Assembly (NCBI GenBank): GCA_964480775.1 | Contig: CAYZRF010000001.1 | Location: 113,462 to 145,461 of the forward strand | Length of the DNA stretch: 32,000 nucleotides | Direction: 5' to 3' | DNA from: an uncultured Nitrososphaerota archaeon | GTDB lineage: Archaea; Korarchaeota; Korarchaeia; Korarchaeales; Korarchaeaceae | Shown here: piece after piece, positions 2,481 to 27,548 of the stretch | Numbering within the stretch: the first letter of the stretch is position 1 | How the letters are laid out: each line of letters begins with the position of its first letter | Notes under the pieces: generated by a model | Seen by the model: only the letters and a program-made list of their open reading frames with translations | What the model was told of the DNA's origin: nothing | Databases searched by the model: none | Position numbers and translations under genes: made by a program

Positions 2481-4565
2481 ATGGGCAAAAACATCATATG
2501 CGTGGACATAGGTGGTACGTTTACAGACGTCATAGCCTTAGATGTAGAGACAGGAGAGGTAGTGAGAGAGAAAGTTCTATCAACGCCTAAAGAACCAGAA
2601 ATCGCGATGTTAAGTGCAGTTTCTAATGTTTTTGAGAGAATAAAGTACAAAGAGGTTGAATTCATAGTACATGCAAGTACAATAGCCACAAATGCAATCT
2701 TAGGTCAAATAGGGCTTGAACTTCCAAAATGTGCGATGTTGACTACGAAGGGCTTTAGAGACATCATTGTGATAGGTAGACAGCAGAGACCAGAACTTTA
2801 CAACATCTTCTTTCAAAAACCAAGGGAACTCATTCAACGCAAGTACAGGTTTGAAATAGAGGAAAGGACTGGGCCCGATGGCAGCGAAATAATGCCTTTA
2901 AATCAGGAAGATGTCAAAAGGGCTATATCTAAGATAAAAGAAGAAGATATAAAGGCAGTAGCTATTTGCTTCCTCAACTCTTATGCGAATCCAACGCACG
3001 AGATGAAAGCAAAAAACCTCGTAGAAAAGGAGTGTAAAGTATTTACAGTGGCTTCAAGCGAGATCTGCCCAGAGTATAGAGAATACGAGAGGTTCAGCAC
3101 AGCAGTTGTAAACGCAGTTCTTATGCCCATCGTCTCCTCATACTTAGGACGCCTCAGACAAGGACTTGAGGAAATGGGTTTGAACTGTCCTCTCTTGATG
3201 ATGAAATCAAGCGGTGGTCTTATCTCTAGCCAAAGAGCTGTGAGGATGCCTGCAGCGATAATAGAGTCTGGTCCCGCCGCAGGAGTCATTGCAGCAACGT
3301 TCTATGCAGAGTTGATTGGTTTAGAAAACATCCTGAGCTTTGACATGGGAGGAACTACAGCTAAAGCTGGCACCATAGTGGACAGAACCCCCGAGGTCAC
3401 TAGGGAATACGAGGTGGGGGGCAGAACTCATAAGGGAAGGTTGGTCAAGGGAAGTGGTTACCCGGTTAGGTTTCCATTCATAGATCTTGCAGAGTGCAGT
3501 GCTGGAGGAGGCACCATTGCATGGGTGGATGAAGGAGGCTTTCTGAGAGTTGGTCCCGTAAGTGCTGGATCGGATCCCGGACCTGCTTGTTATGGAAAAG
3601 GAGGCAGCGATCCCACTGTAACAGATGCAAACGTGATTCTTGGAAGGTTAAATCCAAAATATCTTCTTGGAAGGGCATTGAAAATCCATAAAGAGCTGGC
3701 TGAAAAGGCAATAAGGGAGAAGATATGTGATTCTTTAGAATTAGATATAGTGGAGGCAGCAAACGGAGTAATTGAAATTGTGAACTCTGAGATGAGCAGA
3801 ATTTTGCGCATAATGTCAGTTGAGAGGGGACTTGATCCAAGAGAATTTGCTCTCATGGCCTTTGGAGGAGCTGGACCAATGCACGCTTGTTGGCTTGCTG
3901 AAGAGTTGTCCATAAATCTCATAATTATACCCCTAGATCCAGGACTCTTCTCTGCATGGGGCTTGATGTCTGCAGATGTAACGCATGAAGTTTCCAAACC
4001 CTTGATGACGACGTCAATTGATCATGAAAGGCTTGAAGATCTCTTTGAAAGTCTAGAAAAAGAGGCAAGAGAGGTTCTTTTGGAACAAGGAATCAAAGAA
4101 GGAAAAATATTCCTCTTCAGAGAGCTGGATGTGAGGTATTTAGGACAGTCTTACGAGTTACAAGTTTCAGTTCCTTCTGAACTAAACGAAAACTCTCTGA
4201 ACAAGGTAATAGAGTCCTTCCATGAGAAACACAGAAGGATGTATGGTTATTACATGCGCGATGAAGAGGTTGAGTTTGTAAATGCAAGAATAAAAGCAAT
4301 TGGAAGGATCATAAGGCCAAATATCCCGAAACAACCACTTCAAGGCGCTGTTCCAGATGAAAATTCAATATTGGGCTTTAGAGAGGTGTATTTTGGCAGA
4401 GAAGAAGAGTTCCACAAGACTCCAATCTACATTAGAGAAAGGCTTAAACCAGGAAACATGATTGAAGGTCCGGCCATAATCGAGCAATACGATACGACAA
4501 CAGTGATTCCTCCCGGATGGAGTGCAAAGGTTGATGAGTTTGGTTCCTTGAGGGTGGTGCGTTAA
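2481..4565 (+). CDS. hyuA: hydantoinase/oxoprolinase family, subunit A (HyuA-type; N-methylhydantoinase A / 5-oxoprolinase / acetone-carboxylase-beta-like)
   Basis: 694 aa. The N-terminal ICVDIGGTFTDV and the later FDMGGTTAK ASKHA-fold ATP-binding motifs are typical of Hydantoinase_A. The stop TAA (4563-4565) abuts the ATG of the B subunit. Confidence 0.9.
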   Translation: MGKNIICVDIGGTFTDVIALDVETGEVVREKVLSTPKEPEIAMLSAVSNVFERIKYKEVEFIVHASTIATNAILGQIGLELPKCAMLTTKGFRDIIVIGRQQRPELYNIFFQKPRELIQRKYRFEIEERTGPDGSEIMPLNQEDVKRAISKIKEEDIKAVAICFLNSYANPTHEMKAKNLVEKECKVFTVASSEICPEYREYERFSTAVVNAVLMPIVSSYLGRLRQGLEEMGLNCPLLMMKSSGGLISSQRAVRMPAAIIESGPAAGVIAATFYAELIGLENILSFDMGGTTAKAGTIVDRTPEVTREYEVGGRTHKGRLVKGSGYPVRFPFIDLAECSAGGGTIAWVDEGGFLRVGPVSAGSDPGPACYGKGGSDPTVTDANVILGRLNPKYLLGRALKIHKELAEKAIREKICDSLELDIVEAANGVIEIVNSEMSRILRIMSVERGLDPREFALMAFGGAGPMHACWLAEELSINLIIIPLDPGLFSAWGLMSADVTHEVSKPLMTTSIDHERLEDLFESLEKEAREVLLEQGIKEGKIFLFRELDVRYLGQSYELQVSVPSELNENSLNKVIESFHEKHRRMYGYYMRDEEVEFVNARIKAIGRIIRPNIPKQPLQGAVPDENSILGFREVYFGREEEFHKTPIYIRERLKPGNMIEGPAIIEQYDTTTVIPPGWSAKVDEFGSLRVVR

Positions 4566-6224
4566 ATGGATCCTGTAACTGTTGAGGTCATAAGAGGAGG
4601 GCTCGTTTATGCTGCCGAGGAAATGGGAATAGTTCTGAGGAAGACAGCTTACTCTCACAACATAAAGGAGAGAATGGACCATTCTTGTGCGATATTTGAC
4701 AGCAAAGGGAGGTTGATTGCTCAGGCTGAACACATACCTGTTCATCTGGGTTCGATGTCAATCGCCTTGAAGAACTGCCTTAAGGAGATCGATTTCACTC
4801 TTGAGGAGGGAGACATGGTGGTCTTCAATGATCCTTACCTGAGCGGAACGCACCTCCCAGACATAACACTGGTAGCACCGGTATACGAGGGGAAGGAGCT
4901 GCTTGGTTATGTTGTAAACAAAGCTCATCACTCTGATGTAGGGGGAAAGGCTCCTGGTAGCCTTCCAGGAGATGCTAGCGAGATATATCAAGAAGGGCTG
5001 ATAATCCCTCCAGTAAGGCTTGTAAGAAAAGGAGACATAGCTAAGGACGTCCTAAAGCTGATATTGTCAAATGTGAGGACTCAGAAGATAAGGATGGGAG
5101 ATCTTAAAGCGCAAGTAGCTGCAAATCTGCTGGGAATAAGGAGATTAAGAGAGATCGCACAGAAGTTCGGAATAGGTGTGGTTAACGAGGCTATCGACGA
5201 CATACTTGATTACTCGGAGAGGAGAATCAGGAAAAAGATATCAGAGATAAAAGAAGGATCTTATGAGGCAGAGGACTATCTGGAAAGCACTGGAACGGAG
5301 GATAAACCCGTAAGGCTGAAAGTAAGGGTTCAAGTGAAAGGAGATGAGATCTCTTTTGACTACTCTGGTACCGATCCTCAAGTAAATGGACCGGTGAATG
5401 CTGTTCTTGGAGTAACTTTGGCTGGAATTTATTACGTCTTAATGTGCATTACGGATCCAACAATTCCCATGAATGAGGGCTGTTTTAGACCTGTTTCTGT
5501 GAACGTGCCAAAGGGATGCGTGCTGAATCCAGTAAGACCAGCCCCCGTAGGAGGAGGAAACGTTGAAACGTCTCAGAGGAATGTAGATGTGCTCTTTAAA
5601 GCTCTTTCAAAAGCCATTCCCCAAAAAGTTTGTGCAGCTGGCCAAGGCACGATGAACAATGTTTGTGTTGGTGGAATAGATGCCTCAGGGAAACAGTGGG
5701 TCTTCTATGAGACAATAGGTGGGGGGTATGGAGGGAGGCAGGGGCTTGACGGAGTTGACGGAGTTCAGGTCCACATGACAAACACAATGAACACTCCGAT
5801 TGAGGCAATAGAAGCATCTTATCCCATTCTATTCTTGAGATATGAGCTTAGAAAGGATAGTTGTGGGGCTGGAAAGTGGAGAGGAGGCTGTGGTATAGTC
5901 AGAAGCTGGAAACTTCTGGGAAAGCATGCTTCGCTCTCCATAATGGCAGAAAGACATAAGATAGCACCATGGGGTCTCTTTGGTGGAAATCCTGGGATGA
6001 CAGGCGAAGCTCTGATAATTAAACCAGATGGAAGTAAGATGAAATTACCCTCAAAGTGCACCGTAACGCTGAAAAAAGGCGACGTCTTCATAATTTTTAC
6101 TCCTGGCGGTGGGGGGTATGGAAAACCACAAGAGAGAAGCCAAGAAGCGATATTGAAGGACTTTGAGAATGAGTTACTTTCAAAGGAAAAAATTATTGAA
6201 GATTACGGTTTTGAGCCTTCTTAA
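4566..6224 (+). CDS. hyuB: hydantoinase/oxoprolinase family, subunit B (HyuB-type)
   Basis: 552 aa starting MDPVTVEVIRGGLVYAAEEMG...RMDHSCAIFD..G.LIAQAEHIPVHLGSM, ending ..PGGGGYG.P. This is the typical Hydantoinase_B layout, directly coupled to hyuA. Confidence 0.9.
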   Translation: MDPVTVEVIRGGLVYAAEEMGIVLRKTAYSHNIKERMDHSCAIFDSKGRLIAQAEHIPVHLGSMSIALKNCLKEIDFTLEEGDMVVFNDPYLSGTHLPDITLVAPVYEGKELLGYVVNKAHHSDVGGKAPGSLPGDASEIYQEGLIIPPVRLVRKGDIAKDVLKLILSNVRTQKIRMGDLKAQVAANLLGIRRLREIAQKFGIGVVNEAIDDILDYSERRIRKKISEIKEGSYEAEDYLESTGTEDKPVRLKVRVQVKGDEISFDYSGTDPQVNGPVNAVLGVTLAGIYYVLMCITDPTIPMNEGCFRPVSVNVPKGCVLNPVRPAPVGGGNVETSQRNVDVLFKALSKAIPQKVCAAGQGTMNNVCVGGIDASGKQWVFYETIGGGYGGRQGLDGVDGVQVHMTNTMNTPIEAIEASYPILFLRYELRKDSCGAGKWRGGCGIVRSWKLLGKHASLSIMAERHKIAPWGLFGGNPGMTGEALIIKPDGSKMKLPSKCTVTLKKGDVFIIFTPGGGGYGKPQERSQEAILKDFENELLSKEKIIEDYGFEPS

Positions 6225-17081: not shown

Positions 17082-17974
17082 ATGTTGCCAGTTTCAAAAA
17101 GAAACATAGCTCTCAGTGAAGCTCTTCTCACAACATTTCTCTGGTCTTCTTCTTATATCCTAATTAAGCGTGGTCTAGTAATAATCAGTCCTCTTCTATT
17201 TGCTGGTAGTAGGTACTTTCTCGCCTTTCTTTGCCTATTGGCTGTTTTTCTCCTAACTAAGAGGAATTTACCAGCAATAAAAAGGAAGAAATGGGTTAAC
17301 CTCGCATTTTTAGGCCTTTCAGGATATGCAGGAATGCCTGCGTTCCAGTTCTTAGGTTTACTTTATCTTGGAGCGACTGATTCAGCATTCATCTCAAATT
17401 TCAATCCGCTATTGTGGCCCTCATTTCTTGGATCGTAAAAAAGAGGTCTCCTGGAAAAACGCAGTGGGTAGGATTTATTCTCTCGGTAGTTGGTGCAACC
17501 ATCTACTTTCTCCCAGAAATAGGGCTTAGATCAATGGATAAAGCTCTAGGTATGATATTCACCGCCATATCTGGTCTCTTTTGGGGAGTTTACATGGTGT
17601 TAGTTGAAAAAAGAAATTCTGAAGGATTGGACTCTCTCACAAGAACTACCATCTCAATGGGCTTAGGAAGCGCTCCACTTCTCCTCCTTTCCTTTGTAAT
17701 TGAAGGTACAGGGCTTGTAAAATCATCTTGGATATACATAGTGTGGTTAGGGGTAGTGAACACAGCGTTAGCCTTCACTTTGTGGATTCATTCTCTTGAG
17801 GAGCTAAGAGCATTTGAAACAGCAGTTTTGCAGAACACCATGCTAATTCAAATAGCTTTGCTCTCTATGCTATTTTTGGGCGAAACGTCTTCATCAAACA
17901 AGATAATTGGAATGATACTTGTACTTACAGGAGCTATTTTGGCCCAAAGGAGAATCAAAAACGACTCACAATAA
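17082..17974 (+). pseudogene. EamA/DMT-family transporter split into two ORFs (17082-17438 and 17414-17974) by a -1 frame change: pseudogene, sequencing indel, or programmed -1 frameshift
   Basis: The two ORFs (118 aa and 186 aa) together give the ~297-aa, ~10-TM architecture of EamA transporters. The second ORF is in the -1 frame relative to the first. The region where both frames are open is 17381-17435. Confidence 0.65.
17396..17402 (+). other. candidate -1 slippery heptamer A_AAT_TTC in the zero frame of the upstream EamA ORF
   Basis: The zero-frame codons are tcA AAT TTC (17394-17402). A slip to AAA TTT continues as CAA TCC GCT ATT GTG GCC CTC..., i.e. QSAIVALISWIVKK..., which is the downstream ORF's frame. 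Confidence 0.3.
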
Positions 17975-18007: not shown

Positions 18008-18697
18008 TCATCCACGCTCCATTAAAGGGACTATCCTCTCGAGTACATAGTTAATGAATGTCTCCTCATCTATCTTACTAAAAATGGTCACGACGCAGTT
18101 TCTGGTAAGTCCAACAACCAACCCATATTTCTTGTCCTCGAATACGACATACCAAATTTTCCCATGCTTGAGGTATTCATGGTATAAGGTGGTATCCTGG
18201 AGAGCGTTTCCATAAAGGGCCAACTTGTTTATATTTGGCAGATCGACCTGATCGAAGTAGATAACTTTAGTAGCCTCTGGATTGGATTCGTGTAACTCTT
18301 TTAGGGTCTCATGAGTTATCTTTGCCTCTACCACAGCCCCAGGTCCAGGAATAATTATCTCACCTAGCTTTGAGGCTATGTTGTTTGCTATTCTCCACTT
18401 TTCAACGACGAAAAGAAGCGTCGTTCTTTCATTCTCTGTGAAGAAAAAACCTGACTCTCTTGTAAATAAGTTGTATCTTTGTTCTCCCCTATAGGTGGTC
18501 GGAATTACCTTATCTTCAGAGTATATTCCCCACAAAAGATCTTTCCTAAAGTCAAGTTCTCTTATTTCACTCATCAGCTTTATTTCTTGTTCTCCATATT
18601 CTTCTACTCTTTCCATTTTCCAATCTTTTAGCTTTTCAGCAATAAGTTCTAATGGAATCCTCTCCTCAAGCTTGAAAAGCTTGCCTGCTAAAACCAT
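18008..18697 (-). CDS. hypothetical protein (about 229 aa), divergent from the SMC-like gene
   Basis: Long ORF with no recognisable motif. The track start at 18700 is TTG, and the adjacent ATG at 18697 is more likely. Confidence 0.5.
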   Translation of the reverse strand: MVLAGKLFKLEERIPLELIAEKLKDWKMERVEEYGEQEIKLMSEIRELDFRKDLLWGIYSEDKVIPTTYRGEQRYNLFTRESGFFFTENERTTLLFVVEKWRIANNIASKLGEIIIPGPGAVVEAKITHETLKELHESNPEATKVIYFDQVDLPNINKLALYGNALQDTTLYHEYLKHGKIWYVVFEDKKYGLVVGLTRNCVVTIFSKIDEETFINYVLERIVPLMERG

Positions 18698-18700
18698 CAA

Positions 18701-19000: not shown

Positions 19001-20815
19001 ATGCCATCAACTTACATCAAGGAAGTCGTGCTAGAGGACTTCATGTCCTACGAGTATTCTAGAGTACCTCTTAAACCAGGTCTTAATATAATAACAGGGC
19101 CTAATGGGGCCGGAAAGTCCTCGATAATACTAGGAATAGCCGTAGCGATGGGTCAAACATATACTGAGAGGTCTAGAAGGCTTAGGGATCTTATTAGAAG
19201 AGGAAAAAACGTTGCTCGTGTTACAGTAGTGCTTGACAATAGGCCAGTCGATGGAAAGAGGCCAATTCCCTTTTCAAGAAAAGATGAGGTCAGGATATCT
19301 CGATATCTAAGGTCTGACGGTACTTACTGGTTTGAAATGGACTATAAACCAATAGACAAGGCAGAAGTTGTCTACAGATTATCTCGTCTTGGAATAAACC
19401 CTAACAACATGTTAATCATAATGCACCAAGGTATGGTAGGCGATTTCAGCCGTCTTTCTGCAGAAGATAGATTAAAACTCGTTGAAGAGGCGGCTGGTCT
19501 ACATGAATATCGAGAAAGGATCTTAGATGCTAGGAAAAAATTAGAGGAGATAGTTAGTGAAGAGGAATCTCTAAAGGATCTACTCTCAAAAAGCGAAAAA
19601 ACAATGAATTATTGGGAAGAACAATACAAAAGGCTTCTTGAGAAGAGAGAAATCAAAGAAAAGCTTAGGAGCCTAAGACAAGAACTTGCTTGGTCCAAGT
19701 GGTGTCTTCAACTTAAGAATGTGGAGAAAATAAGGAGTAGGATAGCTAAAAGAGAGTTAGAAGCTGATAAATGGAAAAATAAGCTCATTAAAGCTGAAAA
19801 AAAGGCTAAAAACGCAAGAAAAGTCCTAAAGAAGTCCTGGGAGTCCTTAGAGGATGCCTTTTTAGAGCTCTCTGTTGAAGAAAGGGCGCTAGGTAGGATA
19901 GAAGCATCGTCGAAAGAATCAATAAAGGACGCGATGAAAAGCGTTGAAACCGCTAGAGCAAAAGTTGAGGCACTAAAAGCCTCTTTCTTCAAGAAGCAGG
20001 AGGAGCTTATAGAAGCATCTGTTGAGAAAGCACTGAGCGATTTTAGGCTAAAGATGATACAGACAGAAATATCAAGACTTAGGAGAAAGTTATTGGAAGC
20101 AGAGCAAAAGCTTTCAGAACTAGAGAAAGAAGCGTTGAATATAGGTCCGAAGGTAGAGACCGAAAGATCTCCTGATGAAATAATACAAGAGATAAGATTT
20201 GCTTCAGCTAGACTTTCTAGCTTAACAGATGTATCTGACGAAACTGAACAGATGTACTTGAATTATACGAAAATGCTTGAAGAGCTAAGGGAAAAAGCAA
20301 GAATTCTTGCAGAGAATAAAAAAGCGGCTATTAGAGAGCTTGAAGAAAGGAGTAAATTATGGAGAAGAAGGCTAAGGGCTCTAATAGGTGAGGTAAACAA
20401 GACATTTAACGACATTTTAGAGAGACTTGATGCCAGAGGCGAAGTCAGACTCTCAGATTTAGAAGACGTCGAAAAGGCGGGCCTGAGAATCTTTGTAGGG
20501 TATAGAGGAGCTCCTCTTGCAGAGTTGGATCCCTTCACGCAGAGCGGAGGAGAAAGGAGTACTGCCATAATAGCTTTTCTCCTATCCCTTCAAAAACAAA
20601 TGAAGTCTCCTATAAGAGTAGTAGATGAGTTTGATGTTCATATGGATCCAGCCAACAGGGAGAGAATGTTCGAGCAAATATTTGAAATACTTAAAGAAGC
20701 TGGAGGACAGAGCATCTTTGCTACACCTAGAAGGCTAGTTGGATTAAAAGCGGGTACACACATAATCGTTGTCCAAAATGTTGAAGGAATCTCAAAGATA
20801 AGAGAAGTTAGCTAA
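19001..20815 (+). CDS. SMC-family ATPase, half-length and hinge-less (Smc5/6-like head motifs)
   Basis: N-head: YIKEVVLEDFMSYEYSRVPLKPGLNIITGPNGAGKSSIILGIAVAMG (Walker A), then IMHQGMVGDFSRLSAEDRLKLVEEAAGLHEY. C-head: GEVRL..GLRIFVGYRG..L..FTQSGGERSTAIIAFLLSLQ (signature motif, Q at 20540), PIRVVDEFDVHMDP (Walker B/D-loop), FATP. Between them lie about 285 residues of Glu/Lys/Leu-rich heptad-like sequence. I see no Gly-rich hinge domain and no CxxC zinc hook. AGGAG lies 7 nt before the ATG. Confidence 0.85.
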   Translation: MPSTYIKEVVLEDFMSYEYSRVPLKPGLNIITGPNGAGKSSIILGIAVAMGQTYTERSRRLRDLIRRGKNVARVTVVLDNRPVDGKRPIPFSRKDEVRISRYLRSDGTYWFEMDYKPIDKAEVVYRLSRLGINPNNMLIIMHQGMVGDFSRLSAEDRLKLVEEAAGLHEYRERILDARKKLEEIVSEEESLKDLLSKSEKTMNYWEEQYKRLLEKREIKEKLRSLRQELAWSKWCLQLKNVEKIRSRIAKRELEADKWKNKLIKAEKKAKNARKVLKKSWESLEDAFLELSVEERALGRIEASSKESIKDAMKSVETARAKVEALKASFFKKQEELIEASVEKALSDFRLKMIQTEISRLRRKLLEAEQKLSELEKEALNIGPKVETERSPDEIIQEIRFASARLSSLTDVSDETEQMYLNYTKMLEELREKARILAENKKAAIRELEERSKLWRRRLRALIGEVNKTFNDILERLDARGEVRLSDLEDVEKAGLRIFVGYRGAPLAELDPFTQSGGERSTAIIAFLLSLQKQMKSPIRVVDEFDVHMDPANRERMFEQIFEILKEAGGQSIFATPRRLVGLKAGTHIIVVQNVEGISKIREVS

Positions 20816-20949: not shown

Positions 20950-21327
20950 GTGACATTCATGTCCGTTTCAGGTTCTGACCTTAACTCTCTCTTAGAAGGA
21001 TGCGTAAAACGTACACCCGGAATGGAAGCAGTGGCTCTTGTAACTATGGATGGACTCATTATGGCATCATCGCTTCCATCTGGCTCTGGTGAAGAAAGGG
21101 TGGCAGCAATGTCTTCTGCCTTACTTAGTATTGCATCGAGAATAACTGAGGAGCTAGAAAAAGGAGAATTTCAAAGAGCTCTTGTGGCTGGTTCAGAAGG
21201 ATTCATCGTTTTGGTTCCATCTGGTGATAACTTTCTTCTAACCGCTGTATGTTCTAGGGATGCAAGGTTAGGTATGGTTCTTTTTGAAATAAACAAACTA
21301 GCAGAGTTTTTGTCTGAAAGGCAATAA
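20950..21327 (+). CDS. Roadblock/LC7 (MglB-like) domain protein
   Basis: 125 aa. GMEAVALVTMDGLIMASSLPSG..EERVAAMSSALLSIASRITEELEKGEFQRALVAGSEGFIVLVPSGDNFLLTAVCSRDARLGMVLFEI is the classic Robl_LC7 alpha-beta-alpha pattern. The start is GTG 20950 or ATG 20959. Confidence 0.8.
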   Translation: MTFMSVSGSDLNSLLEGCVKRTPGMEAVALVTMDGLIMASSLPSGSGEERVAAMSSALLSIASRITEELEKGEFQRALVAGSEGFIVLVPSGDNFLLTAVCSRDARLGMVLFEINKLAEFLSERQ

Positions 21328-21529: not shown

Positions 21530-22333
21530 ATGAAATCCAAACAAAAGAGAAGAAGAGAGATACTGCTTAGGATACTGGACTTATGCGAGAAGACCCTGAG
21601 AGAGGAGACAGATCCTTTTCAGGTCGATGTTGTTCAGCTATTTAAAAAATTAAGACAACTTCTCCCAGAACTCGAGACAGAAGAAGAACTTTACTTGGAC
21701 TTAGAGGCAGTCCTTGGTCTAACTTCAGTAATACTGAAGCAAGAGGAGTGGATCAGATATAGATCCTCTCTCATGTTTTTGGATCCACTTCTGGTTCTTC
21801 TAAAAATAGAGAAACTGGATGACAAAGATCTTGCTGATGTGCTTCGGAGGAGTTGGAGGCCAATCGTTGAGGCTAGAGGAGTCTCCCCCTTGTTTCTTGA
21901 AAGGGCTGTTGAATACTGGAGGACCCTTCCAGCCCTCGAAGAAAGAAAGTTGGAATTGATAGAAGAGAATGAGTCAACAGGAACTCTTTCTCTTTCAGAG
22001 CTAGCGGCTCTAGGATTCGCCTCTGAGGAGGAATTCTTGTCCTTTCTGGAAAGCGAAGAAAATAGACTAAAGAAAGAAGCCAAAAAGAGAGGAGGCGAGG
22101 TTCCATACTGGGAGTTTATTGGTGCAATAACCTTTGAAGAAACCATAAAAAGAGCCTATCTTGTAAGTTTTCTCTGTAGCTATGGAAAAGCTACAATAAG
22201 AAGAGATCCTCTCTCAGGCGAAATGTGGCTTGTTCCTTTGGAGAAACCACTAGGAACCAAGGTTTCCCTCGCAATACCTATAGATGAAGAAAGGTGGAAG
22301 AGAAATGTCAGAAGAGGCAGAGCTAAGAGCTAA
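21530..22333 (+). CDS. kleisin-like protein (ScpA / Nse4-type SMC-bridging subunit)
   Basis: The N-terminal DPFQVDVVQLFKKLRQLL...LEAVLGLTSVILKQEEWIR parallels the archaeal ScpA N-domain (DPW.IDIVEL.DKYL ... LLAASILL+.K as I recall it). The middle is acidic and linker-like. The C-terminal IKRAYLVSFLCSYGKATIRRDPLSGEMWLVP resembles the kleisin C-terminal winged helix that binds the SMC head cap. Confidence 0.6.
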   Translation: MKSKQKRRREILLRILDLCEKTLREETDPFQVDVVQLFKKLRQLLPELETEEELYLDLEAVLGLTSVILKQEEWIRYRSSLMFLDPLLVLLKIEKLDDKDLADVLRRSWRPIVEARGVSPLFLERAVEYWRTLPALEERKLELIEENESTGTLSLSELAALGFASEEEFLSFLESEENRLKKEAKKRGGEVPYWEFIGAITFEETIKRAYLVSFLCSYGKATIRRDPLSGEMWLVPLEKPLGTKVSLAIPIDEERWKRNVRRGRAKS

Positions 22334-22865
22334 GTTGAGAAGAGCAGCTCACATGCTCTTCTTTAGAACCCACTCTAAGCCAGGAGTGAAGGGCTGGGAG
22401 CTCAAGAAAGGTCTTGGAAGAAACTACCTTCAGGTAATAGACTTACTTAACAGGGAATTGGAGAAGATAGGTCTTAGGGTGGAAGCAATCTCACAGGAAG
22501 GAGAGAAACCGAAAGATGAGCAAGATCTTCTTTACAGTAGCTTCTTTGTTACCTTCAAGGATCCTCCAGACTGGCCAGAAATAAGAGGTTCAGGATGGAG
22601 AATAGATGAAATGGCTGCCTTAACGGCATGTCTCTCTTTAATCCTATCAAGGGGTGGTAAGGTAAGGAGGAAGGAGATAGATGAACTACTTGAGAAGAAA
22701 ATACCTTCATGGAGGGCTAGAGCCATAGTTGAGAGGTTCTTTAGAATGGGATACCTCTCCCTTGGTGAGGAAGACGAAGTCATTGTAGGTTGGAGGAGCA
22801 GAGTTGAGATAGATTTACAAAAACTCATGAGCCTACTTCTTGGCAAAGAGACAGAAAGCGCTTGA
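22305..22865 (+). CDS. tandem winged-helix 'kite'-type protein (ScpB / MAGE-Nse3-like)
   Basis: I prefer the start at ATG 22305, with GGTGG 7 nt upstream; the track's ATG at 22284 has no RBS. It overlaps the kleisin stop by 29 nt, implying translational coupling. WH-A: AAHMLFFRTHSKPGVKGWELKKGLGRNYLQVIDLLNRELEKIGLRVEAIS...LYSSFFVTF. WH-B: DEMAALTACLSLILSRGGKVRRKEIDELLEK..ARAIVERFFRMGYLSLGEEDEVIVGWRSRVEIDLQKLMSLL. This layout matches the MAGE homology domain, including a terminal W-G-x-R-x-x-x-E-like element. Confidence 0.55.
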   Translation: MSEEAELRAKLRRAAHMLFFRTHSKPGVKGWELKKGLGRNYLQVIDLLNRELEKIGLRVEAISQEGEKPKDEQDLLYSSFFVTFKDPPDWPEIRGSGWRIDEMAALTACLSLILSRGGKVRRKEIDELLEKKIPSWRARAIVERFFRMGYLSLGEEDEVIVGWRSRVEIDLQKLMSLLLGKETESA

Positions 22866-22928: not shown

Positions 22929-23345
22929 GTGAGTTCTGGGATCTTGAAAACTGTAGGATCCTTTTTGGACCAAATGGGTGTTAAGTACGCCCTAGATGAA
23001 GAGAAAGGGCTAATCTTAAGCAACTGGTCCATAGAGGACAAGCCCTTTACCGTAGGCGTATGGGCTGCAGGTCCTTGGTTGATAATCAGAGGCTATATAC
23101 TTCCAAAATCAATGATTCCAGGAGAAAAAGAACTTAAACTTTACAAAGAACTGTTAAATACTCACTATATCTTAGCAGAGGTCAGATATGATATAGATGA
23201 GGAGGGAAACATAGGAACAACCCAATCAATCCCCTTAGAGGGCCTTAACATAAGCAACTTTCAATCAGAATTTAATGCAGTTCTCTATGCAATTAAGTTC
23301 TTTCTAACAGATATAGCCGGGAAACTAGGTATAGAAATAAGTTAA
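22929..23345 (+). CDS. YbjN-like (T3SS-chaperone-like fold) protein, tentative
   Basis: 138 aa, GTG start with AAGGTG 7 nt upstream. The layout FLDQMGVKYALDEEKG..., FTVGVWAAGPWLIIRGYI, LYKELLNTHYILAEVRYDIDEEGNI resembles YbjN/DUF-type 'sensory transduction regulator' domains. Assignment by eye only. Confidence 0.4.
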   Translation: MSSGILKTVGSFLDQMGVKYALDEEKGLILSNWSIEDKPFTVGVWAAGPWLIIRGYILPKSMIPGEKELKLYKELLNTHYILAEVRYDIDEEGNIGTTQSIPLEGLNISNFQSEFNAVLYAIKFFLTDIAGKLGIEIS

Positions 23346-24078: not shown

Positions 24079-24666
24079 ATGATCCGATATAAGTTCTTAG
24101 TGACAGATATGGATGGAACCCTTGTGACGTTAGACATAGACTGGGATGAGTTAAGAGAAAGAGTCAGAGAAATAATAAAGACAGATCATCCTCTGAAACC
24201 TTTAGGACCCAGCATTCTAGAGACAACAGAGGGAAATGAAGAACTTAGAAAAAAGGCGTTTGATCTTGTAGAAAGCGAAGAAGTTAGGGCAGCTCTTGGT
24301 GCTTTTCCAGACCCAGAACTCAAGGCAATGCTTTCAAGGCTTAAGGATAAAGGAGTAAGAATGGCTCTCATCACATTTCAATCGGCTAAACCTGCTACTA
24401 TAGCCCTAAAGAGACTCGAAGTGTTACCGTTCTTTGAGTTCTTGATAACTAGGGAATACTCACTAAACAGGAAGAAACAACTCTCAATAGCATTAGAACG
24501 CCTAAAGGCAGATCCTAGAAGGACTGTTTTTGCTGGAGACTCCTCTTGGGATGTCTTAGCTGGAAAAGAGCTTGGTTGTTATACCGTGGTTGTACGAAGA
24601 AAAATAGAAGGCGCTGATCTTTTCGTTGAAAAATTTGTAGAGCTTGAGAGGGTATTTTCGGATTAA
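24079..24666 (+). CDS. HAD-superfamily hydrolase (phosphatase)
   Basis: Motif I LVTDMDGTLV (DxDGT), motif II ALITFQS, and a C-terminal VFAGDSSWDVLAG (motif IV, GDxxxD). Confidence 0.8.
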   Translation: MIRYKFLVTDMDGTLVTLDIDWDELRERVREIIKTDHPLKPLGPSILETTEGNEELRKKAFDLVESEEVRAALGAFPDPELKAMLSRLKDKGVRMALITFQSAKPATIALKRLEVLPFFEFLITREYSLNRKKQLSIALERLKADPRRTVFAGDSSWDVLAGKELGCYTVVVRRKIEGADLFVEKFVELERVFSD

Positions 24667-27548
24667 TACAACCTCCATCTCTCTTTAAACCTTCTTGAAG
24701 CCAAACTCTTTCTTTCTTCATAAAGAAGTTCATAAAATTTCGAGGAGAGCCTTGGCTCTTCTGCTAGAATCTTCTCTATTGTATTCTGAGGAAGTCCGCT
24801 AACCAATGCTATAGCTGCTACCTTACCAAATTTGGAGATTAAGAAGGCAGATCTCCTTAAATCTCTCCAAATCCTTTTACTTTCTTTGTTAAGAGCTCCT
24901 TCTTTTGATCTAGTGAGAACTAATCCAACTTCGAATTCATCAGCATCGGTCATGCCAATTAACTTAGAGCCACAGATCGGACACATAAGTTCATCATCTA
25001 GTCTATGTAGCTCGATCTCTTCGATATATCCCTTACACTCAAGACAAGCAAAAGTCCTTAATTGACTTAACAACTCCACTTTCATCTTTGCAACTTTCAA
25101 AGTTCTCTTCCTCTCCAAAGGAACCCTTTCCAACTTTCTTGTTATGAGATCCACTCCAATCTTTGCAATCGGGGTTGGATTCTCAAGTTCTCCTACGCAT
25201 ATCACTTCAACTTCTCCACTGTTTATCCTCATTAGTAGTCTTTCTGCACCTTTGAGGTCTATATCTCTCTCAATGGCCTCTCTAAAAGCTTCTTTATAGA
25301 CGGGAGTATCTCTTAAGGCATCTATTAGGTTATCGACGAACTCTCTGCTTAGTGTGGCTCCTTTCTCCAATATTCCCATCTTTCTAGCTGCCTGGGTTAT
25401 CCTAAATCTAAAGAAACCACTCTTCTCCATCGTTCTCCTCACAAGCGTGGCGATGTCTGGTCCGCTTTCTTCTCTAAGGATCGTTGAAACTTCCTCAGGA
25501 GAAACTTGACCCTTAAGGTATATCCTATAAGGATCTTCGCTAACAGCAACGGGTTTTGCAAATCTTTCGGTCAACGCCTCAGAAATAAACCTGGATAGAG
25601 CTCTGTTTATTAGAGTTCCACCAAGAACGTGAACTGTTACAAGGTCTTTGTAGGATTCGACAACAATTCTTCTGTCGTTTGGAACTGGGAAACCAGATTT
25701 ACATTGCTCAAGAATTGGTTCTATGCCTCTAGCTATAAAATCAGGCGTAGACTGGTACTTTCGAGATAGCTCCTCCGCTATCTCCGATAAGGTCTTTCCT
25801 TCTTTAAACCTCTCCTCAACAAACCGCCTAATAAATCCTACCTCTTGTGCCACCTCATAGGGAACGGGGATTTCCTCTCCAACCCAGCTTGGAACGGCTC
25901 CTAAGGGATCCTCAGCTCTCTTTATATATACACGATCCTCAAAAACTTGAACTACTGTCCAAACTTCGCCAGCCATTATGAACTTAACCCCGGGCTTTCC
26001 ATATTCTGCCACGAAAGGCTCGTCTAAAATACCGACTGGCTCTTCTGAGTCCTGATCTATTACTAAATACTGTTTCACATCTGGTATCATAGACAGGTTC
26101 TCGAAATAGTATGTGTAAATTCTCTCAGGGGGGCCCACCCTAAAGAACTCAACTTCCTTGAAGGAGAGCCCTAGAAAGGGACTTCTCATATGGGCCATGA
26201 ACCTCAAAAGCTCCACAAATTCTTCAAATCCCAAATTTCTGTAGTTATAAGCTCCTTTAATAATTACATAAGCTTCATCTACGGCCCATCTCTTCTTTAT
26301 AAGAAGAAAACCAGCTATCTCATGCATTAAAGCATCTAGAGGTTTATCAGGGATCTTCACAGGCTCAAGCTCATCCGACATTGCCCTTCTAGCTACAACA
26401 AGGGCCTCGATTGCATCATCAGAGTTTTGAACTATAACCGTACCTTTAGAAATAGCACCTACTCTGTGCCCACTTCTTCCAACCCTCTGAACCAATCGAG
26501 TTGCCTGTCTTGGGGAGTTGTACTGTATCACCATATCTATGGATCCTATATCTATGCCAAGTTCTAAGCTTGAAGTCGCTATCAAAGCTTTTAATGTCCC
26601 AGATTTTAGTCCTCTCTCAGCTCTAAGCCTGCTCTCTAGGGCCAGAGACCCGTGATGCACATTTATCGGAATTGAGACATCCCAGAGCTTAAACCTGCTT
26701 CCAAGAACTTCTGTCATGGGTCTTGTATTCGTAAATATTAGGCAGGATTTAGAAGATTCAACGATTTTCTTTATACAACGAAGCCTAGCTGCAACATCTG
26801 GATATGTGTACAATTTTGAAGCGAGTTTAACATCCTCTGGGGTGGGCTTTGGATATGCTATCTCAACTCTCATCAACTTGACTATGGGTACGTATATCAT
26901 CTCATAAGAGTCTGAGGATCCAACCAGAAAGCGTGCAACATCCTCAGGGCTGCCTACTGTAGCTGAGAGCCCTATTATCTGGAAATCTCCTTTCTTCAAC
27001 CATTTTAGCCTTTCCAGGGCTAAAGCAAGCTGAGCACCTCTCTTGCTCTCAGCTAGCTCATGGATCTCATCTATGATAACGTGTCTCACAGTTAGTAGGT
27101 TCTCCCTCAGTTTTCTGCCAATGAGCATTATCTGCAAAGTTTCAGGCGTGGTTACTAATATGTCAGGAGGCATATCGGCCTGAGTCCTTCTTTCTCTCAC
27201 GGAAGTGTCTCCGTGTCTTACCCCTATTGAAAGATCCAGTTTACTGCACCACCATTGTAGCCTATCCATTAAATCCCTGTTCAAAGCCCTCAGCGGGGTT
27301 ATATACAGAACTTTAACCCCTCTTATCCTCTTTTCTTCTAAGAGTTTGCTTAACACAGGAAGAAAAGCTGCCTCTGTCTTACCTGTTCCGGTTGCGGCTA
27401 TTAAGAGCACATTTTTGCCCTCTAATATAGGTTTAATCGCCTTGGCTTGGGGATCCGTTGGTTCCATGAAACCTTTTTCCTCTACTAGTCTTTTAACTGG
27501 CTCTGCAAGCATTTCGAAAGCATTAGAGTTTGTGGAAGAGAATTCCAT
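24663..27548 (-). CDS. lhr: Lhr-type large superfamily-2 helicase (DEAD/DEAH box plus Lhr-associated domains, C-terminal zinc ribbon)
   Basis: 961 aa. Q-motif/Walker A PTDPQAKAI...LLIAATGTGKTEAAFLP, DEIHEL (motif II), SAT, TSSLELGIDIG, QRVGRSGH (motif VI), then a long Lhr-type C-terminal region with CLEC...CPIC. Confidence 0.9.
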   Translation of the reverse strand: MEFSSTNSNAFEMLAEPVKRLVEEKGFMEPTDPQAKAIKPILEGKNVLLIAATGTGKTEAAFLPVLSKLLEEKRIRGVKVLYITPLRALNRDLMDRLQWWCSKLDLSIGVRHGDTSVRERRTQADMPPDILVTTPETLQIMLIGRKLRENLLTVRHVIIDEIHELAESKRGAQLALALERLKWLKKGDFQIIGLSATVGSPEDVARFLVGSSDSYEMIYVPIVKLMRVEIAYPKPTPEDVKLASKLYTYPDVAARLRCIKKIVESSKSCLIFTNTRPMTEVLGSRFKLWDVSIPINVHHGSLALESRLRAERGLKSGTLKALIATSSLELGIDIGSIDMVIQYNSPRQATRLVQRVGRSGHRVGAISKGTVIVQNSDDAIEALVVARRAMSDELEPVKIPDKPLDALMHEIAGFLLIKKRWAVDEAYVIIKGAYNYRNLGFEEFVELLRFMAHMRSPFLGLSFKEVEFFRVGPPERIYTYYFENLSMIPDVKQYLVIDQDSEEPVGILDEPFVAEYGKPGVKFIMAGEVWTVVQVFEDRVYIKRAEDPLGAVPSWVGEEIPVPYEVAQEVGFIRRFVEERFKEGKTLSEIAEELSRKYQSTPDFIARGIEPILEQCKSGFPVPNDRRIVVESYKDLVTVHVLGGTLINRALSRFISEALTERFAKPVAVSEDPYRIYLKGQVSPEEVSTILREESGPDIATLVRRTMEKSGFFRFRITQAARKMGILEKGATLSREFVDNLIDALRDTPVYKEAFREAIERDIDLKGAERLLMRINSGEVEVICVGELENPTPIAKIGVDLITRKLERVPLERKRTLKVAKMKVELLSQLRTFACLECKGYIEEIELHRLDDELMCPICGSKLIGMTDADEFEVGLVLTRSKEGALNKESKRIWRDLRRSAFLISKFGKVAAIALVSGLPQNTIEKILAEEPRLSSKFYELLYEERKSLASRRFKERWRLY

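What the first reader, a model, noticed from the sequence alone, without database searches (positions are those of the whole stretch)
19001..20815. Half-length SMC-family ATPase with no hinge and no zinc hook
Both ABC head halves are complete: Walker A at residues ~33-41, signature motif QSGGERS at residue 514, and Walker B VVDEFD. Only about 285 residues separate them. That would give antiparallel arms roughly a quarter to a third the length of canonical SMC arms.

The mid-point region (..LSVEERALGRIEASSKESIKDAMKSVETARAKV..) has no Gly-rich hinge fold. The protein contains a single Cys, so a Rad50-type CxxC hook is excluded.

How such a protein dimerises is unclear. It might dimerise through a RecN-like coiled-coil tip, or through an accessory protein such as the adjacent Roadblock dimer. 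It is also unclear whether it can entrap or extrude DNA.

The C-terminal half tracks the Smc5 C-terminus pattern as I recall it (W...L..L...N..F......GEVRL.....GL.I.V.+R....L....QSGGERS....LL.LQ....P.RVVDE...GMDP.NER).
Basis: partly seen in the sequence, partly recalled or inferred. Interest (0 to 1): 0.7.

Follow-up and report, generated by a model that had tools for sequence, protein, structure and literature searches.

The report
Hingeless mini-SMC of archaeal SMC5/6-like complex
This gene encodes a real, widely conserved archaeal relative of the eukaryotic DNA-repair protein SMC5/6 that keeps its ATP motor and its partner genes but has short arms (about 20 nm by calculation) and no hinge, so it may test whether a closed ring is needed for this type of machine.

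Summary
ORF 19001-20815 (+) encodes a 604-aa SMC-type ATPase with intact Walker A, Q-loop, signature and Walker B motifs. A confident AlphaFold2 model shows the two head halves joined only by an antiparallel helical hairpin: no hinge, no CxxC.

It is not a deletion artefact. More than 100 clusters from Hadarchaeota, Bathyarchaeia, Nitrososphaerota, MSBL1 and Thermoproteota are 552-683 aa long. The closest non-archaeal relatives are eukaryotic SMC5.

Downstream lie an Nse4-like kleisin (21530-22333) and an Nse3/MAGE-like kite (22284-22865). This trio was found in all 12 short-form loci examined.

The family is therefore the "SMC5/6-related archaeal SMC" complex already described by Yoshinaga & Inagaki (2021) and van Hooff et al. 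(2024/25). Neither paper, in the text I could search, remarks that most members lack a hinge.

The Roadblock gene is a lineage-specific insertion, not a conserved partner.

Two things appear new: a conserved 230-aa protein of unknown function encoded divergently upstream, and a recurrent neighbouring aLhr1 helicase.

The arm tip is the least conserved part of the protein. The likeliest model is a kleisin-bridged, ATP-engaged head dimer that clamps DNA without apex closure. This is inferred, not shown.

The parts
19001..20815 (+). 604-aa short SMC5/6-related ATPase (whole gene, stop codon included)
   Evidence: ORF. Pfam SMC_N 1.1e-28. NCBIfam SMC_prok_A 200 bits, far below its 729-bit cutoff. 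Best PDB hits are SMC5. 13,668 library hits at E<=1e-3, 113 at E<=1e-30.
19001..19495 (+). N-terminal head half (residues 1-165), with Walker A at 19097-19120, an Arg-finger-like TER motif at 19163-19171, and the Q-loop MHQ at 19421-19429
   Evidence: AF2 secondary structure. Motif positions. G33-S40, T55, E56, R57, H142 and Q143 are invariant in 56 homologues.
19502..19897 (+). Ascending arm helix, residues 168-299 (132 residues, about 19-20 nm by my calculation)
   Evidence: One continuous helix with block-mean pLDDT mostly 83-94. No Pro. Heptad-type periodicity.
19898..19912 (+). Arm tip: 5-residue loop (residues 300-304, EASSK). No hinge, no CxxC.
   Evidence: Only non-helical stretch in the middle; pLDDT <50 at 301-303. 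Residues 240-340 are the least conserved part of the family, with top-residue frequency 0.38-0.50. Tips of other members vary in length and sequence.
19913..20143 (+). Descending arm helix, residues 305-381
   Evidence: AF2 helix. No Pro or Gly.
20144..20239 (+). Conserved interruption of the descending helix (residues 382-413, GPKVETERSP...DVSD), read as the SMC 'joint'
   Evidence: Breaks at 382-390 and 408-413 flank helix 391-407. R389 is invariant and P391 nearly so, with E416 and Y419 invariant just after the segment. The segment is also conserved in the long relatives. Best structural match is the Pyrococcus Smc head with coiled coil and joint, 5xei, E = 5e-25. The 'joint' label is my inference.
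20240..20422 (+). Head-proximal ('neck') descending helix, residues 414-474
   Evidence: AF2 helix. Conservation 0.6-0.77. Its role as the site for the kleisin N-domain is inferred by analogy.
20432..20812 (+). C-terminal head half (residues 478-604), with signature QSGGERS at 20540-20560, Walker B at 20615-20635, the D-loop, and 'ATP' at the H-loop position (20717-20734)
   Evidence: 81.6-bit local alignment to the human SMC5 C-terminal head, including the shared ITP/ATP motif.
21530..22333 (+). 267-aa Nse4-like kleisin
   Evidence: The family profile hits human EID3/NSMCE4B (E = 2e-6), yeast Nse4 (0.014) and the ScpA N-domain (0.029). Pfam Nse4_C matches 11 of 18 members, best 1.7e-4. Found immediately after the SMC gene in all 12 short-form loci.
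22284..22865 (+). 193-aa Nse3/MAGE-like kite (tandem winged helix). The true start may be the ATG at 22305; it overlaps the end of the kleisin gene.
   Evidence: The family profile hits Xenopus Nse3, 7dg2_C (E = 0.0065). AF2 pLDDT is 82. Foldseek top hits are Nse3, MAGE-G1, Nse1, MAGE-A4, then JetB, MukE and ScpB. Homologues begin at MSEEAEL.
18008..18700 (-). 230-aa conserved protein of unknown function, transcribed divergently from the SMC gene. Candidate additional subunit.
   Evidence: 44-47% identical homologues lie within 4 kb in L081, L083, L084, L085, L086 and L088; L089 carries a 97%-identical copy and L090 a 53%-identical fragment at the contig edge. No hit in Pfam, NCBIfam, PADLOC or PDB by profile. 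Unrelated to the kite or kleisin.
20950..21327 (+). 125-aa Roadblock/LC7 protein. A lineage-specific insertion between the SMC and kleisin genes, probably not part of the conserved system.
   Evidence: Pfam Robl_LC7 1e-14. Found only in the window and L089. Absent from L090 and all other loci.
24663..27548 (-). 961-aa aLhr1-type helicase, convergent with the operon. A recurrent neighbour.
   Evidence: 45-62% identical Lhr lies just downstream of the kite gene in L001, L083, L085, L087 and L090, and 91% identical in L089. One lies 3.6 kb away in L092. The C-terminal Cys-rich motif is visible; aLhr1 definition from PMC8301817.

Best explanation
**What it is.** The gene encodes the ATPase subunit of an archaeal SMC5/6-related SMC-kleisin-kite complex. 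In this family the distal arm and hinge have been reduced to a plain helical hairpin.

**Shown**
- The head is a complete SMC-type ABC ATPase, closest to SMC5.
- The arm is an antiparallel helical hairpin of about 130 residues per strand. It has a conserved joint-like interruption and a non-conserved tip.
- The gene is always followed by an Nse4-like kleisin and an Nse3/MAGE-like kite.
- The short form is the predominant form across several archaeal phyla.

**Inferred mechanism**
- Two copies engage head-to-head around two ATP molecules.
- One kleisin bridges them: its N-domain binds the neck of one copy and its C-terminal winged helix binds the cap of the other. The kleisin also carries a kite homodimer.
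- DNA is clamped on top of the engaged heads, between the head-proximal arms and the kleisin/kite module, as in the DNA-bound yeast Smc5/6 structure.
- The dimer is held by the kleisin bridge and ATP, not by an apex domain. The arms are open or only loosely zipped, so DNA is held in the kleisin compartment rather than in a hinge-closed SMC ring.

**Likely role.** The conserved aLhr1 helicase neighbour, the housekeeping genomic context and the SMC5/6 kinship point to DNA repair or replication-stress handling rather than long-range loop extrusion.
For: **Head identity**
-.
- After the archaeal family, the next best hits in a 1.84-billion-protein library include eukaryotic SMC5 (P0260 and P0287, named).
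- ATPase motif residues are invariant in 56 homologues.
- The 'TP' at the H-loop position is shared with SMC5.

**No hinge or hook**
- AF2 model.
- No CxxC in any of 56 short members; five have no Cys at all.
- The tip is the least conserved region. In other members it is a variable loop, sometimes low-complexity.
- The Walker A-to-signature distance varies from 428 to 562 residues within the short family.

**Partners**
- Kleisin and kite.
- The trio is present in 12 of 12 short-form loci.
- It is also present next to the 982-aa relative P0214.

**Context**
- The window carries glutamine synthetase, oxoprolinase, a nucleoside-phosphorylase-type protein (Glycos_transf_3/PYNP_C) and transporters.
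- In L084 the module is followed, after a tRNA-deacylase gene, by FtsZ, SecE, Spt5 and ribosomal protein genes.
- aLhr1 is adjacent in 7 loci.

**Literature**
- SMC5/6-related archaeal SMC, Nse4-related kleisin and Nse1/3-related kite occur in operons (PMC8665677; bioRxiv 10.1101/2024.01.07.573240).
Against: - No homodimer or complex model could be run, so the state of the arm tips is untested.
- Low conservation of the tip does not exclude a generic helical-bundle contact.
- Kleisin and kite assignments rest on weak-to-moderate profile scores (E = 2e-6 and 0.0065) plus one fold match.
- The window's own kleisin and kite do not reach any Pfam threshold.
- The DNA-clamp and repair role is by analogy and gene neighbourhood only.
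- Relatives with a central CxxC or a globular middle exist. Apex dimerisation therefore clearly matters in some branches of the same family.
Confidence: 0.55

Rival explanations
1. Same complex, but the hairpin tips do self-associate, either RecN-like or as a small helical bundle. Two 20-nm arms would then form a small closed SMC ring that can still entrap or extrude DNA over short distances.
For: - All well-studied SMC-family proteins dimerise at the apex.
- Relatives in the same family carry a central CxxC or a globular middle, which suggests selective pressure for apex joining.
- Short Lamassu LmuB proteins with zero CxxC are proposed to use divergent dimerisation strategies (PMC12663957).
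Against: - The tip is the least conserved and most length-variable part of the protein.
- In several members it is a Gly/Ser/Pro-rich loop.
- No conserved motif is found there, and AF2 confidence is lowest there.
Confidence: 0.27
2. The apex is closed in trans by a separate protein: either the conserved 230-aa protein encoded upstream or, in this lineage, the Roadblock dimer. That protein would act as a detachable hinge.
For: - The 230-aa gene is linked to the operon in 9 of 10 loci with enough flank.
- It has no other assignable function.
- Roadblock proteins are dimers (general knowledge).
Against: - Nothing locates the 230-aa protein at the tip, and the non-conserved tip is a poor docking site for a conserved partner. 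The conserved joint segment at 382-419 is a likelier one.
- Roadblock is absent from all but the closest relatives.
- The 230-aa gene is absent next to the operon in L087.
Confidence: 0.1
3. It is a Lamassu-like or other SMC-like immune sensor. A short LmuB-type ATPase would sense foreign DNA ends, with neighbouring genes as effectors.
For: - PADLOC LmuB model PDLC03859 matches nearly full length at 1.1e-28, and mad3 at 1e-33.
- Short LmuB is also about 600 aa with coiled coils of about 20 nm.
Against: - SMC-specific models score higher: 200 bits against SMC_prok_A, and 117 bits by single-sequence search against SMC5.
- The kleisin, kite and 230-aa proteins hit no PADLOC model.
- No nuclease, Sir2 or protease effector is present.
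- The gene order is conserved across phyla, with subunit identities that track each other (about 44% each).
- The context is housekeeping, not a defence island.
- LmuB derives from the SbcC/Rad50 branch, whereas this protein groups with SMC5/6.
Confidence: 0.05
4. It is a truncated, decaying or mis-assembled SMC gene with no function of its own.
For: It is about half the usual SMC length. A neighbouring EamA gene in the window appears frameshifted.
Against: - The reading frame is intact and all ATPase motifs are invariant.
- More than 100 independent clusters have the same architecture in several phyla.
- The AF2 model is confident.
Confidence: 0.01

Closest known systems
SMC5/6-related archaeal SMC complexes (Yoshinaga & Inagaki 2021, PMC8665677; van Hooff et al., bioRxiv 10.1101/2024.01.07.573240)
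   Same: - The head groups with SMC5/6.
- The operon order is SMC, Nse4-related kleisin, Nse1/3-related kite.
- The taxa match: TACK, some Euryarchaeota including Hadarchaeota, and Asgard.
- This locus is almost certainly a member of that set. Their length filter was 500-1,500 aa.
   Different: - Neither paper's searchable text mentions a missing hinge, short arms, the 230-aa neighbour or the Lhr neighbour.
- Both treat these proteins as hinge-dimerising SMCs by default.
Eukaryotic Smc5/6-Nse1/3/4 core
   Same: - Best sequence match of the head.
- 'TP' at the H-loop position.
- Nse4-type kleisin C-terminal winged helix.
- MAGE/Nse3-type kite fold.
- A likely DNA-repair context.
   Different: - A homodimer is expected from a single SMC gene and a single kite gene.
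- No hinge.
- Arms about half as long.
- No Nse1 RING, no Nse2 SUMO ligase, no Nse5/6 detected.
Bacterial and archaeal Smc-ScpAB
   Same: SMC homodimer plus kleisin plus kite homodimer encoded together. Best structural match is the Pyrococcus Smc head with coiled coil and joint.
   Different: - Scores far below the SMC equivalog cutoff (200 vs 729 bits).
- No hinge domain.
- Arms about 40% of canonical length (canonical length from general knowledge).
- The kite is Nse3-like rather than ScpB-like.
Short Lamassu LmuB / RecN / ASRP (ClsN, Sph1/2)
   Same: SMC-superfamily ATPases of about 550-650 aa with short coiled coils and no canonical hinge. Short LmuB may have no CxxC.
   Different: - Those belong to the Rad50/SbcC-like or RecN branches, or carry a zinc hook (ASRP).
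- They lack a kleisin-plus-kite pair of the Nse4/Nse3 type.
- The NCBIfam ASRP model matches only the Walker A region (44 bits vs a cutoff of 300), and RecN scores 34 bits vs 408.

Membership tests
SMC proper (hinge-type SMC, e.g. Smc, SMC1-6) | Bipartite ABC head with Walker A, Q-loop, signature, Walker B and D-loop | tested here: met
   All motif residues are invariant in 56 homologues.
SMC proper (hinge-type SMC, e.g. Smc, SMC1-6) | Globular hinge dimerisation domain at the apex of the arm | tested here: not met
   AF2 gives an all-helical hairpin with a 5-residue tip loop. No Pfam SMC_hinge hit. No PDB hit for residues 168-475.
SMC proper (hinge-type SMC, e.g. Smc, SMC1-6) | Long antiparallel coiled-coil arm (about 300-350 residues per strand) | tested here: not met
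   132 and about 155 residues per strand. The score against the SMC_prok_A equivalog is 200 bits, against a cutoff of 729.
SMC proper (hinge-type SMC, e.g. Smc, SMC1-6) | Works with a kleisin and kite/hawk partners | tested here: inconclusive
   Kleisin-like and kite-like genes are co-encoded in 12 of 12 short-form loci. Physical interaction was not tested.
SMC5/6-related archaeal SMC (literature clade) | Head sequence closer to SMC5/6 than to canonical SMC or Rad50 | tested here: met
   PDB: SMC5 6.5e-33, Pyrococcus Smc 1.3e-24, SMC6 4e-18, Rad50 1.5e-7. The first non-archaeal library hits that I named are eukaryotic SMC5. A rough NJ tree is consistent but has no support values.
SMC5/6-related archaeal SMC (literature clade) | Adjacent Nse4-related kleisin and Nse1/3-related kite | tested here: met
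   Operon description.
Rad50/SbcC and ASRP (zinc-hook SMC-like) | Central CxxC zinc hook | tested here: not met
   The single Cys is at residue 235. No CxxC in 56 short homologues. ASRP scores 44 bits vs a cutoff of 300; Rad50 scores 73 bits or less vs 700 or more.
Lamassu (LmuABC) | LmuB ATPase encoded with an LmuA effector (nuclease, Sir2 etc.), with or without LmuC | tested here: not met
   An LmuB model matches at 1.1e-28, but no neighbour hits any PADLOC model and no effector domain is present.
RecN | Match to the RecN equivalog; bacterial SOS context | tested here: not met
   TIGR00634 scores 34 bits vs a cutoff of 408, and only over the Walker A region.

The most novel reading that the evidence does not exclude
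The predominant prokaryotic relatives of eukaryotic SMC5/6 are natural 'hingeless' SMC-kleisin-kite machines. Their arms are about 20 nm long and end in an unconstrained loop, so they would act as ATP-gated DNA clamps without a closed SMC ring. They would work together with a previously unrecognised 230-aa subunit and the aLhr1 helicase. Within the same clade the apex has been remodelled repeatedly: a globular middle, nothing, or a Rad50-type CxxC hook. That would make the family a natural experiment on what the hinge is for.
Probability: 0.3. Interest if true: 0.78.

Novelty: new variant of a known kind. Interest (0 to 1): 0.58.

Why it matters
**The mechanistic question.** Current models of SMC action (topological entrapment, DNA-segment capture, loop extrusion) assume two arms permanently joined at a hinge. 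Here a bona fide SMC-kleisin-kite system has dispensed with the hinge and with more than half of the arm. It is also the closest archaeal kin of SMC5/6. It offers a compact, probably thermostable model for asking which SMC activities need apex closure. Candidate activities to compare are DNA clamping, ATPase stimulation and translocation.

**Evolution.** The finding bears on how SMC5/6 originated. If the rough tree is right, a hinge-bearing form is basal, most lineages lost the apex domain, and one Bathyarchaeota lineage re-extended the arm and acquired a CxxC hook.

**Possible new partners.** The linked 230-aa protein and aLhr1 helicase would be new leads for archaeal DNA repair.

**What is not new.** The gene family and its operon are already in the literature. 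The new element is the architecture and the extra neighbours, not the existence of the system.

Tried and rejected
1. **Genome-contig scan with the family alignment.** Only 2 true family loci (L001, L002) were recovered; the rest were ordinary bacterial SMC or RecF/RecN heads. I switched to exact look-ups of homologues.
2. **Look-up of the window's own protein.** Not on record, so the source genome was not identified beyond 'Thermoproteota archaeon' labels on close homologues of the kleisin.
3. **The 230-aa protein.** Pfam, NCBIfam, PADLOC, a PDB profile search, and hhalign against the kite and kleisin profiles gave nothing.
4. **Middle of P0214 against the PDB.** No hinge hit. 'Hinge-like' for that relative remains my reading of its sequence pattern and Pro/Gly content only.
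5. **Roadblock as a conserved partner.** Rejected on synteny.
6. **Lamassu, RecN, Rad50 and ASRP membership.** Rejected on scores and missing defining features.
7. **Deletion or assembly artefact.** Rejected.
8. **Literature searches for a prior description.** I searched for a hingeless or short archaeal SMC5/6-like protein and for an Lhr-SMC linkage and found none. Figures and non-open-access papers could not be checked.
Full report
**1. Observation**

The window holds an intact ORF at 19001-20815 (+) of 604 aa with an ATG start.
- Walker A GPNGAGKS at residues 33-40.
- Signature QSGGERS at 514-520.
- Walker B RVVDEFD at 539-545.
- Also a Q-loop (MHQ, 141-143) and a D-loop.
- One Cys only, C235.

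Pfam gives SMC_N (1.1e-28, spanning residues 5-584). NCBIfam's best model is the SMC equivalog TIGR02169, at 200 bits against a cutoff of 729. Rad50, RecN, RecF, ASRP and arcadin-4 models match only the Walker A region.

**2. The middle of the protein**

An AlphaFold2 model built on 56 homologues is confident (mean pLDDT 87.9). Its elements are:
- a head half (1-165);
- one uninterrupted helix, 168-299;
- a five-residue loop, 300-304, the only low-confidence spot;
- helix 305-381;
- an interrupted segment, 382-413;
- helix 414-474;
- the second head half (478-603).

There is no globular insert. The two long helices contain no proline. The arm shows strong 3.5-residue hydrophobic periodicity: 28.7 against 10.6 +/- 2.9 in shuffles, with 0 of 500 shuffles reaching it. 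The heads do not show this. The middle 308 residues alone find nothing in the PDB beyond coiled-coil noise.

Foldseek's best match for the whole model is the Pyrococcus Smc 'head with coiled coil and joint' (5xei, E = 5e-25), followed by cohesin, Smc5/6 and condensin heads.

I read the conserved interruption at 382-413 as the SMC joint. R389 is invariant and P391 nearly so; E416 and Y419, just after the segment, are invariant, and W231 lies on the opposite strand.

The arm is 132 residues on the ascending strand, which is about 19-20 nm by my calculation. From Walker A-to-signature distances (481 here, 857-924 in long relatives and SMC5) I estimate roughly half the SMC5-type arm. It is about 40% of a canonical Smc arm, whose length I take from general knowledge.

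**3. Not an artefact**

- A search of 5.8 billion proteins returned over 1,000 hits. The best 120 clusters are all 552-683 aa (median 637) and 42-100% identical over the full length. Named members come from Hadarchaeota, MSBL1, Bathyarchaeia, Nitrososphaerota and Thermoproteota, plus one MAG labelled Hodarchaeaceae.
- An exhaustive HMMER search of 1.84 billion representatives gave 113 hits below 1e-30. About 50 of these are full-length representatives of 548-685 aa.
- None of the 56 aligned short members has a CxxC in the arm, and five have no cysteine at all.

**4. Kinship**

By sequence, the closest solved structures are:

| Structure | E-value |
|---|---|
| Human SMC5 | 6.5e-33 |
| Yeast Smc5 | 8e-32 |
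| Pyrococcus Smc | 1.3e-24 |
| SMC6 | 4e-18 |
| Rad50 | 1.5e-7 |

The C-terminal head aligns to SMC5 over 185 residues. This includes the 'TP' that replaces the H-loop histidine (query FATPRR, SMC5 FITPKL).

In the large library, the first hits after the archaeal family include eukaryotic SMC5 proteins (P0260 and P0287; P0285 is SMC6).

**5.

*The kleisin.* The 267-aa ORF at 21530-22333 has no Pfam hit on its own. A profile of its 18 homologues matches:
- the C-terminal winged helix of human EID3/NSMCE4B (E = 2e-6);
- yeast Nse4 (0.014);
- the N-terminal domain of ScpA (0.029).

Eleven of 18 members touch Pfam Nse4_C.

*The kite.* The 193-aa ORF at 22284-22865 gives a profile hit to Xenopus Nse3 (0.0065). 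Its AF2 model (pLDDT 82) is a tandem winged helix. The best structural matches are Nse3, MAGE-G1, Nse1 and MAGE-A4, then JetB, MukE and ScpB. So it is a kite of the Nse1/3/MAGE type.

*Synteny.* In all 12 short-form loci examined, SMC, kleisin and kite follow one another. The SMC stop codon abuts or overlaps the kleisin start in seven of the twelve. The three proteins diverge in step: about 44% identity each between the window and Hadarchaeum.

**6. What is already known**

Yoshinaga & Inagaki (PMC8665677) defined 'SMC5/6-related' archaeal SMC homologues. There are 80 of them, mostly TACK, and their length filter was 500-1,500 aa.

Van Hooff et al. (bioRxiv 10.1101/2024.01.07.573240) showed that such SMCs sit in operons with Nse4-related kleisins and Nse1/3-related kites. 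They inferred a duplicated SMC complex in the TACK/Asgard ancestor.

The present locus is a member of that system. Neither paper's text or held supplements mention a missing hinge, shorter arms, a helicase or a further conserved neighbour. Targeted literature searches found no such description. I could not inspect figures.

**7. Roadblock**

The Roadblock/LC7 gene (20950-21327) lies between the SMC and kleisin genes only in the window and in a 91%-identical relative (L089). A 58%-identical relative (L090) and all others lack it. It is an insertion, not a conserved subunit.

**8. Additional conserved neighbours**

*A 230-aa protein.* It is encoded divergently upstream (18008-18700, -). Homologues that are 44-47% identical lie in the same position, or within 4 kb, in six more distant loci. 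L089 carries a 97%-identical copy and L090 a fragment at the contig edge. It is missing only in L087, while L001 and L002 have no upstream flank. It has no detectable family or solved relative and is unrelated to the kite or kleisin.

*An aLhr1-type helicase.* It lies at 24663-27548 (-) and has the C-terminal Cys-rich motif. It lies convergent just beyond the kite gene in seven loci and 3.6 kb away in an eighth. A dedicated Lhr survey reported no conserved neighbourhood (PMC8301817).

*General context.* The wider context is housekeeping.

**9. Apex diversity in the family**

- Three Bathyarchaeota representatives (1016-1047 aa, 35-41% identical) have long arms with a central C[DE][KR]CGS motif. 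This is a Rad50-type CxxC.
- One representative (P0214, 982 aa, 31% identical) has a Pro/Gly-containing globular middle that looks hinge-like to me. It hits neither Pfam SMC_hinge nor the PDB. It carries the same kleisin and kite (hhalign 99%) and a nearby Lhr.
- In a rough neighbour-joining tree of head domains, without support values, P0214 is near the base of the archaeal clade and the hook-bearing forms nest within the short forms.

This suggests, but does not establish, loss of the apex domain followed by one secondary arm extension with hook gain. The hook-bearing locus examined has no adjacent kleisin or kite.

**10. Mechanism**

*Shown:*
- a complete SMC-type ATPase;
- a hairpin arm with a conserved head-proximal half and joint;
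- a tip that is the least conserved region (top-residue frequency 0.38-0.50, against 0.8-0.9 in the heads);
- a tip that varies in length (Walker A-to-signature distance 428-562 residues) and is sometimes a low-complexity loop;
- obligatory co-encoding with a kleisin and a kite.

*Inferred:*
- An ATP-sandwiched head homodimer is bridged asymmetrically by one kleisin that carries a kite dimer.
- It clamps DNA above the heads, as in DNA-bound Smc5/6.
- Dimerisation comes from the kleisin bridge and ATP rather than from an apex domain.
- The likely role is DNA repair or replication stress, possibly together with aLhr1.

I rate this model at about 0.55.

*Main rival (about 0.27):* the tips still self-associate, giving a small closed ring. 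Trans-closure by the 230-aa protein or Roadblock rates about 0.1.

*Other rivals:* a Lamassu-like immune role rates about 0.05. PADLOC LmuB matches at 1e-28, but there is no effector, no PADLOC hit for any partner, the SMC scores are higher, and the context is housekeeping. A decaying gene rates about 0.01.

**11. Verdict**

The finding is real and correctly read. It belongs to a described family, so it is not categorically new.

The hingeless, half-armed architecture as the predominant form of the archaeal SMC5/6-related complex, and the two extra linked genes, appear not to have been pointed out. They would interest SMC specialists.

The decisive tests are multimer prediction and simple biochemistry, neither of which was possible here.

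Noticed in passing
window 18008-18700 (-): A 230-aa protein with no recognisable family. It is conserved (44-47% identity) and linked to the short-SMC operon in loci from several archaeal phyla. It is a candidate fourth subunit or regulator.
   Followed up: partly
window 24663-27548 (-); also L001, L083, L085, L087, L089, L090, L092: An aLhr1-type helicase with a C-terminal Cys-rich motif is a recurrent convergent neighbour of the kite gene. A published Lhr survey (PMC8301817) found no conserved neighbourhood.
   Followed up: partly
window 20950-21327 (+): A Roadblock/LC7 gene is inserted between the SMC and kleisin genes only in this lineage (window and L089). No small GTPase partner was seen among the ORFs I scanned against Pfam.
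   Followed up: partly
P0183, P0188, P0192 (Bathyarchaeota); L091 4843-8019: Long relatives of 1016-1047 aa carry a central C[DE][KR]CGS (zinc-hook-like) motif instead of a hinge. In a rough tree they nest among the short forms. The one locus examined has no kleisin or kite next to it.
   Followed up: partly
P0214; L092 4014-8261: A 982-aa relative has a globular, hinge-like middle that is not confirmed by any profile. It has the same kleisin-kite operon and a nearby Lhr, so it is a possible ancestral-type form.
   Followed up: partly
window 17082-17438 and 17414-17974 (+): An EamA-family transporter is split into two overlapping ORFs (118 and 186 aa). The 91%-related locus L089 has a single 305-aa gene (4077-4994). 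This looks like a frameshift, a sequencing error or a pseudogene.
   Followed up: no
window 22929-23345 (+): A 138-aa protein with a weak CesT_Tir_1 chaperone-like match (7.5e-5, below cutoff) follows the kite gene. A homologue is found only in L089.
   Followed up: no
window 22284 vs 22305: The start of the kite gene is ambiguous. Homologues begin at MSEEAEL, which corresponds to the ATG at 22305. Either start overlaps the 3' end of the kleisin gene, consistent with translational coupling.
   Followed up: partly
P0242 (Candidatus Freyarchaeum deiterrae, 835 aa): An Asgard relative (33% identity) has a Pfam SMC_hinge domain at residues 341-452 but is only 835 aa long. Its arms are intermediate in length and it retains a hinge.
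   Followed up: no
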